Positions 56,544 to 63,732 of a stretch of DNA of 64,000 nucleotides are shown one piece after another (the first letter of the stretch is position 1; each line of letters starts with the position of its first letter). Made by a program: the position numbers and the translations under genes. This stretch comes from Tieghemostelium lacteum (taxonomy: Eukaryota), in contig LODT01000042.1 in NCBI GenBank assembly GCA_001606155.1, forward strand, positions 79,758 to 143,757, written 5' to 3'. The notes beneath the pieces are model-generated. The model saw only the letters and a program-made list of their open reading frames with translations, did no database searches and was not told the DNA's origin.

Positions 56544-57437
56544 ATGGTTTTACAAGATGTTGTAGTTAAAGAAAAATTCTTTTTTAAATTATGGAATGGA
56601 TACGAACCAGGTTACATTTCTGGACTGATGGGTATTTTATCTCAAGATGAATTTAATAGAATTCTAAAGGAATATAACAAAGCTGCTGAAAAAGCTATGA
56701 TTAATTTGATAGTTTATACAATCAGTGCTATTATAATTTCTATAGTCCCAAGTGTTACTATAAAAATGCAAATGAAAGGAATGCCACCCCTTACCAAAGA
56801 CAGTTTAAACAATATTCAAGAAATGAAACCAATCATCACATTTGCATGTTTAGTTGGAGGTATAGCTCTACCAATTGCTGCCTATAAAATCTATAGAACC
56901 ATACAGCTAAACCGAGATCTCACCAGAATTACTAAGATATTTAACAAGGAATTTGAAACCAGACAAATTGTATTTAACAGCTCTAAAAAAGAATATATGG
57001 TCAAAGGTAAAAAAGAAATATCTTATGCTCTGTCTATTAGTTACAATGCTACCGTAGGTGCTCCAATAAATACTACCATTTATGCTACTCCTTCGATTAC
57101 ATCTAGCGGTGCTACTATCATTCATCCACCTACTGCTACCATTGTGACTCCGATGAATACAAGTTATGGTCATATTCCACCACCCGTATATCCACAGCCA
57201 TCTTTCCCTCAACAACCATCTTACCCACAACAACCATACCCACAACAACCATACCCACAACAGCCATACCCACAACAACCATACCCACAACAACCATCTT
57301 ACCCAACTCTCCCAAGAGCCCCATCACAACAAGTTCAACAAGTTCAACAACAAGTCCAACAAACTCAAGAAAAAGTTCAACAGACATCTGATTATGTTCA
57401 AATGGAAATGGATACTTTCTCAACTAGTGAAGAGTAA
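56544..57437 (+). CDS. Membrane protein with a prion-like C-terminal (PQQPY)n repeat, 297 aa.
   Basis: Two hydrophobic helices (LIVYTISAIIISIVPSV, ITFACLVGGIALPIAAYKIY). C-terminal PQQPSYPQQPYPQQPYPQQPYPQQPYPQQPSYP, encoded by perfect 15-bp tandem repeats at about 57225-57300. Confidence 0.4.
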   Translation: MVLQDVVVKEKFFFKLWNGYEPGYISGLMGILSQDEFNRILKEYNKAAEKAMINLIVYTISAIIISIVPSVTIKMQMKGMPPLTKDSLNNIQEMKPIITFACLVGGIALPIAAYKIYRTIQLNRDLTRITKIFNKEFETRQIVFNSSKKEYMVKGKKEISYALSISYNATVGAPINTTIYATPSITSSGATIIHPPTATIVTPMNTSYGHIPPPVYPQPSFPQQPSYPQQPYPQQPYPQQPYPQQPYPQQPSYPTLPRAPSQQVQQVQQQVQQTQEKVQQTSDYVQMEMDTFSTSEE

Positions 57438-59257: not shown

Positions 59258-60122
59258 ATGAACACAGATAATAATCATAATACACAACCAACAAGTTTTA
59301 ATGATAATGATATACCGAAAGAACATTGGAATAGTGAATCAGTTCAAAAATGGTGTAAGGTAATAGGAATACCTTATTCTGATATTAAACTTATTCGTGA
59401 TAATAATATTAAAGGGAGATGGTTAGTTCTAAAAAAAGACAACAAAAATTCAAGTTTCTGCTAATTCAGCTTTTGAAATATATTTAAAGTTCAACCCCAA
59501 CCCCACCAGTACTGGTATGTCAACTAACACCTATCACTAATTATACTTTTGTATATTAGATTATTATAATATATTTTTATGATAGGATGATATTAATACA
59601 CTTTTATAACAGAGTTAAAGTATAGTCCTGGTAAACCTCTTCAACCAACAACACAACCATAACTGAGGAAAACATTAAAAACTTGATATCTAAGGTACAA
59701 GGTATTGATGATTCTGTTGCTGAGTCTATTGCTGAGCAACTTGTTTCAAATTTTATCAACCAATTTGATCTTATTCTTCAAACCTTAAATGACATTGAAC
59801 TGAGACCAAAGTATTTTCCCAACTGGAAGGATGGTCAAATTTTTCAACTTAGAAATATTTTGGAGTCCCCTGGTATGTAAATAAACACCAATCACTAATA
59901 TAAACACATTTTACACTTTTATACTAACATATTTTGTAACATAAACTTAATTATAGGTTTTACAGAGTTTATAGATATGACCTATAATATAAACCCTACT
60001 TACAAAAGTATCATTGAAGAAGAAGAGAAAATAGTATTAGACTTAAATATGCCTTATGAAGGAAGAGATAATGAAATAGAAGATATTGTAGAAGTTTATA
60101 AGAATAACAATATACCAGAAAT
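59258..60122 (+). pseudogene. Truncated, degenerate copy A of a tandemly duplicated SAM-like gene.
   Basis: Exon structure parallels copy B (same GTATGT donors and conserved intron sequences). Exon 1 has internal deletions and a premature stop (…WLVLKKDNKNSSFC*). Exon 3 diverges from copy B after ...YKNNNIP at about 60120, where an unrelated antisense gene fragment begins. Confidence 0.5.
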
Positions 60123-60134
60123 CTTTTCCTTGTA

Positions 60135-60480
<346 letters not shown>

Positions 60481-61069
60481 TAATCTTCTCCATATCAAGA
60501 TGAAATAAAGGAAGATGATAATGAAGAGTTTGAACCAAATGAAGATGACTCCATCTACACTCAGAAAACCAGGTTGTTCTTGGATGCAAAGTTTGATTAC
60601 ACAAAGATAAAAACCCAGATCAATTCCAATTACGAGCACATGTACACTAATACTTGGAATCCCTTACATGATCCATATTTATTGAAGCACCCGGATTCTG
60701 AACCAAAAGATCTTCCTGATTCTATCAAAACTCCTACTGATTTCTTTACTCTTTGATGATCTAGTGAAAGACCTGACCCTAGCTTCTAAAAGGTACATAG
60801 ATTATAAAAACCACATTAAATCCTTCTATTAAACCATCATGAAGGAAATGGAAGTTGCAGAAACAGATATTAAAAAATAGATTGTAGATTTCTTTGTGTA
60901 AGACTTAAGTTATATTAAGGATAGTTATATTAAGTTCTAAAGTGTTATATGTATCTTTAATGTACTATAGACCCTACTGAACCACAATGGTTAATGTTTA
61001 TTATATGTTTATTAGAGACCCTAGATCTCTTAATATTACTATATATGGAAATGTTACTAGTTTTGTCTA

Positions 61070-62478
61070 TTGTTCTATACTAAGACAAGTTACCTAAACA
61101 GACCAATGTCTGACATCTTTGTGCTTGGTCTCTATCGCGTTCCTACTGTATCAGACCATTGGAACAATTCAGATTTTTTTATAAAATCTCTGGAGCCAGT
61201 GTTTCCATTTTCTAAATGGAAGTTTATACATCGTGTTTTACATTGTACCGGATTCTATAACGACCCAGGCTATGAAAATCCAGTGCAAGATACAGACAAC
61301 TCCACATCCATTGAAACTCTTTTAAATCAAGCAAACAAAAATAATGTAAAAATTAATGATTTAACTTGGCTGATTAATCACTGTAATTTAAAGATCAAAA
61401 AGCATTATTCTCATATGTTGGTATTGGCATTGGATGATGATCTTTATAAATGGACCGGTAGAGGAGGAACTAAAAAGTATTTACCTGCAAAAGCAGATGG
61501 CATTGGTAACATTTTATGGAAACTGGCTGACGAGAATAAATATATCTTCCATTTTGAAGTAGAAAATTATGTAAAACGTAATCTAAATCCAAACGAAAAA
61601 TTGAACCAAATAATATTAAAGTAGAAGCTGCAGTTCCAAATGGTCTATTTTGTTTTGTAATAGATGCTGGTATTCTTGGATCAGTTGAAAACGCTGAATA
61701 TCTACATTCACAAGGAAGATTTTTCATTGTTTCTGTCTCATCCACCAGAATTAAATCAACTCTAGATCGTGTTCTTGACAATGCCAGATCTAAAAAGGTT
61801 GTAGAGAGAATATCAGGGGATGTAGGAACTGTTCTTTGTGGTATCTCTCAAGATGATATTGTTAGTATAGCATGGAAGGCAAAGAGAGATAAGATTGTGT
61901 ATTTTTACACCAACATATCTAATCCTTTAGCAGCTACAAACAAACAACAATCCTATTATCCTCGTATTGCCTCTGTATACAACTATACTCACAACTATGT
62001 TGACGTAAGTAAAATGATCGTTAATAGACACAGAAACATACGCAGAGCAAGAATTTATTGGAGATCTATTTTTAATGATATTTTTAACATAATGCTGTTT
62101 AACTCCTTTATTTTATATACTCTCGTAAGTAAAAAAAATCAACGTTCATCACTATCTTACAGGGAGTATAAAAAATCAATTGCCTCAGACATGTCATTGA
62201 AAGTGAATACAACACCTACAACCACTAACACTATAGTCTTTCCTGAATTGATAAATTCAACCAAAAAAAGTGTAAATATACTAATTGCACACTGTTTGGA
62301 TCAACCAAACACTCAAGACCCACCTCCCAATGTGTTTGCCACAAAGAGAATTATCACACCTATTGTGCAGTTGCTGTTCACAACCCTAACATGCAAACGA
62401 AAAGAAAAAACACCAACACCACAACAAATAATAATATTATGGATAATAATGAATCTAATGTATAATTTCTGCCTATAA
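61070..62478 (+). mobile_element. Degenerate piggyBac-like (PGBD/DDE_Tnp_1_7) transposase remnant. It is split over at least three frames and is N-terminally truncated.
   Basis: ORF 61070..61624 contains KWTGRGGTKKYLPAKADGIGNILWKLADENKYIFHFEVE, which resembles the piggyBac F(K)GR..KQYMPNKP.KWGIK.W.LADS.TGYVYNFEVYTG block. A shifted frame at 61624 onward (…GLFCFVIDAGILGSVENAEYLHSQGRFFIVSVSSTRI…VYFYTN) and ORF 61897..62478 (RIYWRSIFNDIFNIMLFNSFILY, compare piggyBac W..R.FF.LLD.A.VN.YILY) continue the same protein order. Frameshifts imply inactivity. Confidence 0.55.
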
Positions 62479-62657
62479 ATATATAAATAAATAAATATTC
62501 TATTCCTTAATCCTTAAATCATAGTACTGTTTTTGCCTTTATTTTGTCCTTTTTTGCCACTTGTGTCCATTTTGGCACGGATTCACACTTTGCTCTCCAG
62601 ACACTTTAAATAACCCTTAAGGGTTATTTTATTTTTTTTTGTGTTCTTAATTAAAGC

Positions 62658-63732
62658 ATGAGCACAGATACACAACCAACAAGTTTTAATGACATTGATA
62701 TACCAAACAAACATTGGAACAATGAATCAGTTCAAAAATGGTGTAAATTCATTGGAATACCTGAAAAGGATATAATAATTATTAGAAATAATGAGGTAGA
62801 TGGATTCTGTTTAATATTTGAACATAAAAATGGAAATTTAGGCAAAGTATTAAAGGATTTAGGTGTATCACTCCCTTCTTCAGCTAGAATTCGTGCAAAA
62901 TTCCCACCTATTCAGCCAACTACAACCACAACTATAAGTACTGGTATGTAAACTAACACCTATCACTAATTACACCTTTGTATATTAGATTATAATATAT
63001 TTTTATGATAGGATGATATTAATACACTTTTATAACAGAGTTAAAGTATAGTCCTGGTAAACCTCTTCAACCAACAACTACAACCATAACTGAGGAAAAC
63101 ATTAAAAACTTGATATCTAAGGTACAAGGTATTGATGATTCTGTTGCTGAGTCTATTACTGAACAACTTTTTTCAAATTTTATCAACCAAATTGATCTTA
63201 TTCTTCAAACCTTAAATGACATTGAACTGAGACCAAAGTATTTTCCCAACTGGAAGGATGGTCAAATTTTTCAACTTAGAAATATTTTGGAGTCCCCTGG
63301 TATGTACATAACACCAATCACTAATAGAAACACCTTTTACGCTTTTATACTAACATATTTTGTAACATAAACGTAATTATAGGTTTTACAGAGTTTATAG
63401 ATATGACCTATAATTTAAACCCTACTTACAAAAGTATCATTGAAGAAGAAGAGGATATAGTATTAGACTTAAATATGCCTTATGAGGGAAGAGATAATGA
63501 AATAGAAGATATTGTAGAAGTTTATAAGAATAACAATATACCTGCTTTTATTAGAAAAGTGAAAGCAATACAAAATTATAGATTACCACTTGTAACTGTA
63601 ATATATTACATTACTATATCGAGAATTACTATATATGTAATCTATTATGCTTACTACAATCTAATAATAATTAGTAATCTTACTTCCATTTATAGAATAT
63701 CTGTAATCTCTAAGAAAACTATAAATACTTAA
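62658..63732 (+). CDS. SAM-domain-like protein, copy B (apparently intact). Three exons: join(62658..62943, 63039..63299, 63383..63732), about 298 aa.
   Basis: Exon 1 (…EHWNNESVQKWCKFIGIPEKDIIIIRNNEVDGFCLIFEHKNGNLGKVLKDLGVSLPSSARIRAKF…) has the sterile-alpha-motif pattern W..L.SIG...Y...F....IDG..LL.LT..DL..LG......RI. Phase-1 GTATGT..AG introns of 95 and 83 nt link the three listed ORFs into one frame. The low-complexity tail of exon 3 may hide a further intron. Confidence 0.5.

What the first reader, a model, noticed from the sequence alone, without database searches (positions are those of the whole stretch)
61070..62478. piggyBac-like transposase remnant
Three consecutive ORFs in different frames reproduce the order of conserved piggyBac transposase blocks: the block spanning the first catalytic Asp, the second half of the DDE_Tnp_1_7 domain, and the W..R.FF.LLD.A..N..IL helix. 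The frameshifts and the missing first approximately 100 residues indicate a dead copy. I do not remember piggyBac-superfamily elements among the classical dictyostelid DNA transposons (Tdd-4/5, DDT, thug), so this may be an unreported family. It might also be a domesticated PGBD-like gene in decay.
Basis: partly seen in the sequence, partly recalled or inferred. Interest (0 to 1): 0.6.

Follow-up and report, generated by a model that had tools for sequence, protein, structure and literature searches.

The report
Dead piggyBac-like transposon copy
This is a broken, immobile copy of a piggyBac-type "cut-and-paste" jumping gene in the social amoeba Tieghemostelium lacteum. It is ordinary in itself, but it belongs to a family present across social amoebae that I could not find formally described.

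Summary
Window 61070-61624 matches Pfam PF13843 (piggyBac transposase) at E=6.4e-13. Stitching the frames extends the match to the end of the profile (E=8e-19).

The window comes from Tieghemostelium (Dictyostelium) lacteum. The remnant is larger than reported, about 60500-62465 on the + strand, with a probable degenerate right end at 62610-62627. It retains an N-terminal region, all three catalytic Asp codons and the C-terminal Cys-rich domain.

It is dead:
- three frameshifts (~60752, ~61621, and the A7 run at 62263-62269);
- two in-frame stops (60830, 60878);
- a 204-219 bp interrupting block;
- 5' truncation against an unrelated hydrolase gene fragment.

T. lacteum carries at least three more diverged copies. 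Two are visibly disabled and the third is known only as a truncated gene model.

Relatives occur in D. discoideum, D. citrinum, D. purpureum, Heterostelium album, Acytostelium, Polysphondylium violaceum and Synstelium. Copies in H. album and D. discoideum carry TTAA or ATAA flanks and conserved 12-13 bp terminal inverted repeats (CCCYTAAAGTGT). This favours a true transposon family over a domesticated gene.

The main piggyBac survey lists no dictyostelid. Verdict: new member of a known kind, with modest interest.

The parts
60500..62465 (+). Whole piggyBac-like transposase pseudogene: 5'-truncated, three reading frames, final stop codon at 62463-62465.
60502..60753 (+). Remnant of the N-terminal region (frame start mod 3 = 1). 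It ends in two TGA stops at 60754-60759, and a frameshift lies near 60752.
   Evidence: tblastn with the conceptual N-terminus of L003, summed E=7e-14; alignment A1.
60746..60898 (+). Continuation of the N-terminal region (frame mod 3 = 2), with in-frame stops TAA at 60830-60832 and TAG at 60878-60880.
60898..61116 (+). Block that interrupts the ORF. It is flanked by the direct repeat TCTTTGTG. It is also intron-like: GTAAGA at 60898 to ACAG at 61101, 204 nt, in frame. It carries a left-end-like sequence, TTAA|GTTCTAAAGTGTTAT (60930-60948), and the subterminal motif CCACAATGG (60982-60990).
61102..61621 (+). First half of the DDE_Tnp_1_7 domain (frame mod 3 = 2). The first catalytic Asp codon is 61433-61435, in LALDDD. 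A frameshift follows at about 61621.
   Evidence: PF13843 E=6.4e-13; alignment to T. ni piggyBac D268.
61621..62262 (+). Second half of the DDE domain (frame mod 3 = 1). Second Asp codon 61663-61665 (VIDAG), third Asp codon 62002-62004 (NYVDVS), and the YWRSIFNDIFNIMLFNSFILY helix at 62056-62118.
62263..62269 (+). A7 homopolymer run where the frame changes from mod 3 = 1 to mod 3 = 0.
62265..62465 (+). C-terminal Cys-rich domain (frame mod 3 = 0): KKCKYTNC...CVCHKENYHTYCAVAVHN. It matches the invariant Cys/His columns of the family.
   Evidence: Alignment A1; tblastn third frame.
62560..62627 (+). Probable degenerate right end of the element. It contains the subterminal motif CCAAAATGG (reverse complement, 62567-62575), ACACTTTA (62601-62608), the terminal ...AAGGG (to 62623) and the flank TTAT (62624-62627). 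It overlaps a perfect 22-nt palindrome at 62608-62629.
   Evidence: Similarity to the D. discoideum L004 right end scores 22, against 6.4 +/- 3.1 for shuffles (0 of 500 reach it).
60130..60515 (-). Unrelated alpha/beta-hydrolase (proline-iminopeptidase-like) gene fragment with an in-frame stop. It marks the 5' truncation of the transposase remnant.
   Evidence: PF00561 E=7.2e-9; translation.
59280..60116 (+). Upstream copy of a tandemly duplicated host-gene segment. The partner copy is at 62668-63542, 82-100% identical. Together they bracket the 2.55-kb mosaic that holds the remnant.

Best explanation
The region is a fossil copy of a piggyBac-like DNA transposon in the Tieghemostelium lacteum genome.

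An intact element of this family works as follows. It encodes one transposase with an RNase-H-like DDD catalytic core (PF13843) and a C-terminal Cys-rich DNA-binding domain. The protein binds the short terminal inverted repeats (consensus CCCYTAAAGTGT), excises the element and reinserts it at TTAA, duplicating those four bases. The excision and reinsertion chemistry is inferred from the known piggyBac mechanism, not tested here.

The window copy can no longer do any of this. Its original 5' end and start codon are gone, replaced by an unrelated hydrolase gene fragment. The ORF is broken by three frameshifts and two stop codons. A 204-219 bp block interrupts it. Only a degenerate right end survives.

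The copy diverged from its T. lacteum paralogues while still under purifying selection and was inactivated later. It is now decaying neutrally between two tandem host-gene paralogues.
For: What is shown:
- Identity of the domain: PF13843 at E=6.4e-13 and 8e-19. The T. ni piggyBac structure 6x67 is the only PDB match to the family profile (E=1.6e-4). In that alignment D268 and D447 fall on the family's conserved Asp columns, where the window has Asp codons. All three Asp codons are present in the window.
- The Cys/His pattern of the C-terminal domain is conserved.
- Source organism: exact matches to T. lacteum proteins.
- Disabling lesions are mapped.
- No protein near 100% identical to this copy exists in the 5.8-billion-protein database, so it is not annotated as a gene.
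- Other T. lacteum copies: DLAC_04420 has one in-frame TGA (L001). The DLAC_11821 locus has two frameshifts (L003). DLAC_09271 is known only as a truncated 354-aa model.
- Transposon hallmarks in relatives: H. album L002 has ATAA|CCCCTAAAGTGTG...CACACTTTAGGGG|ATAA around the intact 681-aa PPL_11147. D. discoideum L005 has TTAA|CCCTTAAAGTGT...ATACTTTAAGGG|TTAA around an 851-aa ORF. D. discoideum L004 has a right end ...ACACTTTAGGGG|TTAA. D. purpureum L006 has a solo end.
- End-like sequences in the window are significantly similar to the L004 end.
- A neighbour-joining tree places the window copy with two other T. lacteum copies.
- Between the window copy and L003, pN=0.23 and pS=0.73, a ratio of about 0.1.
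Against: - No intact pair of terminal repeats and no clean TTAA duplication flank the window copy. The right-end assignment was made post hoc and needs an 11-nt inverted duplication, or one gap and two substitutions.
- The copies within T. lacteum are old and few (44-67% amino-acid identity, synonymous sites saturated). No young multi-copy burst was seen, so recent mobility in this species is not shown.
- I could not retrieve the DLAC_09271 locus or scan the whole T. lacteum assembly. Copy number and true termini in this species are therefore unknown.
- Low dN/dS between paralogues is also what diverged host genes would show.
Confidence: 0.88

Rival explanations
1. A decaying domesticated host gene. 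On this reading, a piggyBac-derived (PGBD-like) gene served a cellular function in dictyostelids, was duplicated, and this paralogue is being lost.
For: - The family occurs in many dictyostelid genera, with only a few copies per genome.
- The catalytic triad and the Cys-rich domain are conserved.
- Paralogues diverged under strong purifying selection, with dN/dS about 0.1 and saturated dS.
- The window lies in a gene-dense region of ordinary genes.
Against: - Relatives in both clades keep conserved terminal inverted repeats and 4-bp flanking duplications. Domesticated genes normally lack these.
- End-like sequences persist beside and inside the window copy.
- Every T. lacteum copy whose DNA I could read is disabled.
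- There are two paralogous clades per genome, and one subclade is specific to T. lacteum.
Confidence: 0.08
2. A working gene that only looks broken. On this reading, the frameshifts are assembly errors in homopolymers and the interruptions are introns.
For: - One frameshift sits in an A7 run at 62263-62269.
- The 204-nt block 60898-61101 has GTAAGA...ACAG boundaries and preserves the frame.
Against: - Two in-frame stops (60830, 60878) and the frameshift near 60752 are not in homopolymers.
- The shift at about 61621 cannot be an intron. The candidate GT...AG intervals there are 51, 54 and 63 nt, all multiples of three (read).
- There is no start codon. The N-terminus runs into a hydrolase fragment on the other strand.
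Confidence: 0.03
3. Chance similarity, or membership of another transposase superfamily.
For: None. The second half of the domain does not hit PF13843 on its own.
Against: - E-values of 1e-13 to 1e-99.
- The only other Pfam hits are below their cut-offs: Omptin and Ourmia_CP.
- The only PDB match is T. ni piggyBac.
Confidence: 0.01

Closest known systems
Trichoplusia ni piggyBac (IFP2; structures 6x67/6x68)
   Same: - Same PF13843 catalytic domain, with the Asp triad in the same order.
- C-terminal Cys-rich domain.
- In the dictyostelid relatives: TTAA target duplication and 12-13 bp terminal repeats that begin with CCC. Dictyostelid CCCYTAAAGTGT compares with T. ni CCCTAGAAAGATA; the T. ni sequence is from my own knowledge. 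The 13-bp repeat length and TTAA are given in PMC5381638.
   Different: - Very distant in sequence: the family profile matches 6x67 at only E=1.6e-4.
- The dictyostelid proteins have long acidic or low-complexity N-termini.
- The window copy is non-functional.
piggyBac-like elements (PBLE) surveyed by Bouallegue et al. 2017 (PMC5381638), including the Entamoeba invadens element, the only amoebozoan listed
   Same: - Element architecture: TIRs of 12-19 bp, TTAA, single ORF.
- Rare non-TTAA flanks such as ATAA are reported there, and one is seen here in H. album.
   Different: - No dictyostelid element is in that survey.
- I did not compare the sequences with the Entamoeba element.
Domesticated piggyBac genes (human PGBD1-5, Paramecium PiggyMac, Tetrahymena Tpb2)
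   Same: Same domain. Databases auto-name the dictyostelid relatives 'PiggyBac transposable element-derived protein'.
   Different: Domesticated genes lack terminal repeats and are single conserved host genes. The dictyostelid family keeps TIRs and TTAA flanks, has several paralogues per genome, and this copy is a pseudogene.
piggyBac-like fragments reported in Dictyostelium giganteum (bioRxiv 10.64898/2026.03.01.708701)
   Same: Short, fragmented piggyBac-like copies in a dictyostelid, noted there as not reported in D. discoideum.
   Different: That report rests on tblastx hits to Repbase only. It gives no element structure, termini or family definition.

Membership tests
piggyBac superfamily transposon (PBLE) | Transposase with a DDE_Tnp_1_7 (PF13843) domain | tested here: met
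   E=6.4e-13 for the ORF at 61070-61624. E=8e-19 over profile 49-349 of 349 for the stitched translation.
piggyBac superfamily transposon (PBLE) | Catalytic Asp triad (T. ni D268, D346, D447) | tested here: met
   Asp codons at 61433-35, 61663-65 and 62002-04. The first and third align to D268 and D447 in the HMM alignment to 6x67. The second is assigned from the family alignment and the Pfam match, so it is inferred.
piggyBac superfamily transposon (PBLE) | C-terminal Cys-rich domain | tested here: met
   The third frame at 62265-62465 carries the Cys/His residues that are invariant in the family alignment.
piggyBac superfamily transposon (PBLE) | Terminal inverted repeats of about 12-19 bp that begin with C | tested here: inconclusive
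   Window copy: the original left end is lost. The right end is degenerate (62610-62623, about 12 of 15 matches with one gap). An internal left-end-like block at 60930-60948 has GTT where CCC is expected. Family: met in H. album L002 (13-bp perfect repeat) and D. discoideum L005 (11 of 12).
piggyBac superfamily transposon (PBLE) | TTAA target-site duplication | tested here: inconclusive
   Window: TTAT follows the putative right end (62624-27) and TTAA precedes the internal left-end-like block (60930-33), so there is no clean pair. Family: TTAA on both sides in D. discoideum L005, ATAA on both sides in H. album L002, and TTAA at the L004 and L006 ends.
piggyBac superfamily transposon (PBLE) | Several copies in the genome | tested here: met
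   At least four T. lacteum loci: the window, DLAC_09271, DLAC_04420 and DLAC_11821. They are only 44-67% identical to the window copy. The full genome could not be scanned.
Autonomous (active) element | Uninterrupted transposase ORF with a start codon and both ends | tested here: not met
   Three frameshifts, two stops, an interrupting block and 5' truncation.
Domesticated PGBD-like host gene | No terminal repeats or target duplication; a single conserved orthologue at a syntenic position; intact ORF | tested here: not met
   Relatives keep TIRs and flanking duplications. There are several paralogues per genome. The window copy is a pseudogene. Synteny was not tested because no genome-wide DNA search for eukaryotes was available.

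The most novel reading that the evidence does not exclude
The window copy is one fossil of a previously uncharacterised, ancient piggyBac-like transposon family of Dictyostelia. The family has two clades. Its termini (TTAA|CCCYTAAAGTGT) are conserved between Heterostelium and Dictyostelium. Structurally complete copies (an annotated full-length ORF, both ends and flanking duplications) in H. album PN500 and in recent D. discoideum assemblies may still be mobile. If so, they would be a native TTAA-specific cut-and-paste system in a model organism whose classical transposon catalogue lacks piggyBac.
Probability: 0.5. Interest if true: 0.45.

Novelty: new member of a known kind. Interest (0 to 1): 0.3.

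Why it matters
The window copy itself is genomic debris and has no consequence for the cell.

Its value is as a pointer. The dictyostelid transposon repertoire as usually listed (Tdd-4/5, DDT, thug, plus retroelements; my own knowledge) does not include piggyBac, and the main survey of the superfamily lists no dictyostelid.

The related loci fetched here show that a real piggyBac-like family exists in several dictyostelid genera. It has TTAA or ATAA flanks, conserved 12-13 bp termini, and apparently complete copies in H. album and D. discoideum. That would:
- extend the known host range of the superfamily;
- correct database labels that imply domestication;
- possibly supply an endogenous TTAA-specific transposase and end pair for genetic tools in Dictyostelium.

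None of this is surprising in kind, because piggyBac elements are widespread in eukaryotes.

Tried and rejected
- Intron as the cause of the frame change at about 61621. The GT at 61571 pairs with AGs at 61621, 61624 and 61633. These give intervals of 51, 54 and 63 nt, all multiples of three, so none changes the frame. Rejected in favour of an indel (read).
- Retrieving the DLAC_09271 locus and the annotated context of the window. The look-ups for P0001 and for three window ORFs found nothing on record.
- Profile search through the word index. It was swamped by low-complexity N-terminal words and gave only 3 hits. The full HMMER scan replaced it.
- Searching the window for the H. album terminal repeat with up to 3 mismatches. 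Nothing lay near the remnant. The end-like sequences emerged only when the TTAA flank was included in the pattern and from subterminal motifs.
- MAFFT alignment of the 3' regions of three species. No useful alignment.
- Sensitive blastn of the 219-bp block and the 3' flank against the fetched loci. The output was almost all AT-rich noise. The only useful hit was the L004 terminus.
- Left end of the D. discoideum L004 element. A TTAACCCCC lies about 430 bp upstream of the ORF, but it shares only CCCC with the right end. Left unresolved.
- The palindrome at 62608-62629 as a replicated piggyBac hairpin intermediate. A transposon-end hairpin would give GGG-TTAA-CCC, not the observed CCC-TTAA-GGG. 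Rejected as stated (inference from the published mechanism).
- tRNA-gene targeting, as in dictyostelid retroelements. There are no tRNA genes in the window.

Full report

ORF 61070-61624 hits Pfam PF13843 (DDE_Tnp_1_7, the piggyBac transposase domain). The E-value is 6.4e-13 at 49.2 bits, against a cut-off of 22.4, over profile positions 49-183 of 349.

Three-frame translation shows where the homology continues:
- It runs in a second frame, open from 61583 to 62478.
- It then moves to a third frame from about 62265 to a stop at 62463-62465.

Joining the frames raises the Pfam score to 68.6 bits (E=8e-19) and extends the match to the end of the profile. The second half alone gives no significant PF13843 hit.

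tblastn with dictyostelid homologues reproduces the three frames in order, with a summed E of about 2e-99 and 66-72% identity to DLAC_09271.

Three corrections apply. The third frame holds the Cys-rich C-terminal domain. The 'missing' N-terminal residues are mostly present upstream in damaged form.

**2. Where does the window come from?**

Three window ORFs are exact matches to Tieghemostelium (Dictyostelium) lacteum proteins on one 540,962-bp contig: DLAC_10248, DLAC_10256 and alanyl-tRNA synthetase KYQ89034.

The surroundings are ordinary genes: a PI3-kinase, an MFS transporter and a short-chain dehydrogenase. There are no tRNA genes.

**3. Anatomy of the remnant**

Alignment with full-length relatives and tblastn with N-terminal queries put the remnant at about 60500-62465 on the + strand. 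From 5' to 3':

| Coordinates | Feature |
|---|---|
| 60502-60753 | N-terminal region, frame mod 3 = 1, ending in two TGA codons |
| ~60752 | Frameshift |
| 60746-60898 | Frame mod 3 = 2, with in-frame TAA (60830) and TAG (60878) |
| 60898-61116 | Interrupting block |
| 61102-61621 | First half of the catalytic domain; first Asp codon 61433-35 |
| ~61621 | Frameshift |
| 61621-62262 | Second half; Asp codons 61663-65 and 62002-04; conserved helix 62056-62118 |
| 62263-62269 | Frameshift in an A7 run |
| 62265-62465 | Cys-rich domain |

Supporting calls are 5, 46 and 66.

The family profile's only PDB match is T. ni piggyBac (6x67, E=1.6e-4). In that alignment T. ni D268 and D447 align with the family's conserved Asp columns, which the window's first and third Asp codons occupy.

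Upstream of about 60500 the homology stops. The minus strand at 60130-60515 encodes a fragment of an alpha/beta-hydrolase that looks like proline iminopeptidase (PF00561, E=7e-9) and has its own in-frame stop. The copy therefore has no start codon and no original 5' end.

The frame change at 61621 cannot be an intron, because all candidate GT...AG intervals there are multiples of three (read).

No protein close to 100% identical to this copy exists in the databases searched. It is therefore an unannotated pseudogene.

**4. Local context**

The remnant and the hydrolase fragment form a 2.55-kb mosaic (60117-62667). Two tandem copies of the 5' part of a three-exon host gene bracket it: 59280-60116 and 62668-63542, 82% identical in exon 1 and 97-100% in the rest. 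The upstream copy breaks off at 60116.

Inference: the transposon copy was truncated by the rearrangement that created this patchwork.

**5. Relatives elsewhere**

A word-indexed search found four relatives:
- T. lacteum DLAC_09271 (62% identity, a 354-aa model);
- T. lacteum DLAC_04420 (45%);
- a 703-aa EukProt protein (47%);
- Heterostelium album PPL_11147 (35%, 681 aa).

A full HMMER scan with their alignment found 1011 hits at E<=1e-3. The top named ones are all dictyostelid:
- D. discoideum KAM9968961 (938 aa), KAM9974063 (851 aa) and KAM9974620;
- D. citrinum;
- D. purpureum, two proteins;
- Synstelium polycarpum;
- Polysphondylium violaceum;
- Acytostelium subglobosum;
- T. lacteum DLAC_11821.

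T. lacteum therefore has at least four copies. DLAC_04420 has one in-frame TGA just before the first catalytic Asp (L001). The DLAC_11821 locus has two frameshifts (L003). I could not fetch DLAC_09271 DNA.

An unbootstrapped neighbour-joining tree gives two clades:
- Clade A holds all T. lacteum copies, the EukProt protein and D. discoideum P0009.
- Clade B holds D. discoideum P0154, D. purpureum P0011 and H. album PPL_11147.

The window copy sits in a T. lacteum-only subclade with L003 (67%) and DLAC_09271 (64%).

**6. Transposon or domesticated gene?**

The decisive evidence comes from the flanks of the relatives.

- *H. album:* the intact ORF is bounded by ATAA|CCCCTAAAGTGTG ... CACACTTTAGGGG|ATAA. 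This is a 13-bp perfect inverted repeat with identical 4-bp flanks, bounding an element of about 2.7 kb.
- *D. discoideum L005:* the 851-aa ORF is bounded by TTAA|CCCTTAAAGTGT ... ATACTTTAAGGG|TTAA, about 3.16 kb.
- *D. discoideum L004 (clade A):* the right end is ...ACACTTTAGGGG|TTAA. The left end is unclear.
- *D. purpureum L006:* a solo end, TTAA|CCCTTAAAGTCT.

These features match the published definition of piggyBac-like elements: TTAA with rare variants such as ATAA, TIRs of 12-19 bp, and a conserved first C (PMC5381638). The family is, or recently was, a real transposon family.

**7. Are ends left in the window?**

A direct search for the terminal repeat found nothing near the remnant. 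Two end-like sequences exist nonetheless.

*Downstream of the stop codon.* Read on the minus strand from 62627, the sequence is ATAA|CCCTTAAGGGTTATTTAAAGTGT...CCAAAATGG.
- It aligns to the L004 right end with score 22, against 6.4 +/- 3.1 for shuffles (0 of 500 reach it).
- The spacing between TAAAGTGT and CCAAAATGG is 33 nt, the same as in L004.
- I take GGG|TTAT at 62621-62627 as the probable degenerate right end (post hoc inference).
- It overlaps a perfect 22-nt palindrome centred on TTAA at 62608-62629.

*Inside the ORF.* The interrupting block contains TTAA|GTTCTAAAGTGTTAT at 60930-60948.
- It matches the L004 terminus at 16 of 19 positions.
- It also contains CCACAATGG at the same offset (52) from its TTAA.
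- Its score against L004 is 26, against 9.8 +/- 4.1 for shuffles (2 of 500 reach it).
- The motif CCA[AC]AATGG occurs only three times in the 64-kb window, and two of those are these sites.

The block is flanked by an 8-bp direct repeat, TCTTTGTG. It could also be read as a 204-nt in-frame intron. Its origin is unresolved. Three possibilities remain:
- filler copied from an element's left boundary during repair;
- a nested fragment;
- an intron.

**8. History of the copy**

Over 228 aligned codons between the window copy and L003, pN is 0.23 and pS is 0.73, which is saturated. The dN/dS ratio is about 0.1.

Most of their divergence therefore accumulated while the transposase was under selection. 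The handful of disabling lesions are late events. This fits long-lived, low-copy transposon lineages that died separately. On its own it would also fit diverged host paralogues, which is why the domestication rival keeps some weight.

**9. Comparison with what is known**

- *What it works like:* a piggyBac-type cut-and-paste element. The mechanism is inferred from the family, not tested.
- *Membership:* the protein criteria are met (domain, triad, Cys-rich domain). TIRs and TTAA are met for relatives but inconclusive for this copy. Autonomy is not met.
- *Literature:* the superfamily survey lists only Entamoeba invadens among Amoebozoa. A 2026 D. giganteum preprint notes piggyBac-like fragments 'not reported in D. 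discoideum'. Other full-text searches found nothing on dictyostelid piggyBac elements. Database names ('PiggyBac transposable element-derived protein') are automatic.

**10. Verdict**

The finding is correct and ordinary in kind: a dead member of a known superfamily. The family context is modestly new, with conserved termini and structurally complete copies in other dictyostelids. Interest is 0.3, and novelty is a new member of a known kind.

Noticed in passing
window 60130-60515 (- strand): Fragment of an alpha/beta-hydrolase that looks like proline iminopeptidase ([10 protein letters not shown] motif; PF00561 E=7e-9). It has an in-frame stop and unrelated sequence on both sides, and it abuts the 5' truncation of the transposase remnant.
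   Followed up: partly
window 59280-60116 and 62668-63542: Tandem duplication of the 5' part of a three-exon gene with GTATGT...CTAAC-type introns and no Pfam hit. Exon 1 is 82% identical and the rest 97-100%, which suggests recent duplication or gene conversion. The upstream copy breaks off at 60116.
   Followed up: partly
window 60898-61116: Block interrupting the transposase ORF, flanked by the 8-bp direct repeat TCTTTGTG. It carries a piggyBac left-end-like sequence (TTAA|GTTCTAAAGTGTTAT, 16 of 19 matches to a D. discoideum terminus) and a subterminal CCACAATGG motif. It can also be read as a 204-nt in-frame GTAAGA...ACAG intron. Origin unresolved.
   Followed up: partly
window 62608-62629: Perfect 22-nt palindrome AAATAACCCTTAAGGGTTATTT centred on TTAA, unique in the window. 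It overlaps the putative right end of the element and lies 29 bp upstream of the ATG (62658) of the next gene. Removing an 11-nt inverted duplication would restore the terminal repeat ACACTTTAAGGG.
   Followed up: partly
L002 9782-12493 (Heterostelium album GL290995.1): Structurally complete piggyBac-like element around PPL_11147. It has 13-bp perfect terminal inverted repeats (CCCCTAAAGTGTG) and identical ATAA flanks instead of TTAA.
   Followed up: yes
L005 3856-7024 (D. discoideum JBTAPF010000008.1): Element of about 3.16 kb with TTAA on both sides and terminal repeats CCCTTAAAGTGT / CCCTTAAAGTAT around an 851-aa transposase gene. piggyBac is not in the classical D. discoideum transposon list (my own knowledge; says 'not reported').
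   Followed up: yes
L001 1096-1098 (Logan ERR3252989; T. lacteum DLAC_04420 locus): A single in-frame TGA splits an otherwise open ~755-codon piggyBac-like reading frame just before the first catalytic Asp. The annotated 379-aa model starts after it.
   Followed up: partly
L003 ~1041 and ~1550 (Logan ERR3252994; T. lacteum DLAC_11821 locus): A fourth T. lacteum copy, 72% identical in DNA to the window copy, with two frameshifts. It also has a Thr/Asn-rich low-complexity insertion in the catalytic domain.
   Followed up: partly
L004 607-2235 and 3913-5541: Two called genes of identical length (542 aa, no Pfam hit) in tandem, directly upstream of the D. discoideum clade-A transposase gene.
   Followed up: no
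window 57177-57305: Array of repeats with a 15-nt period (CCACAACAACCATAC-like) that encodes a Pro/Gln/Tyr-rich repeat, inside ORF 56544-57437.
   Followed up: no
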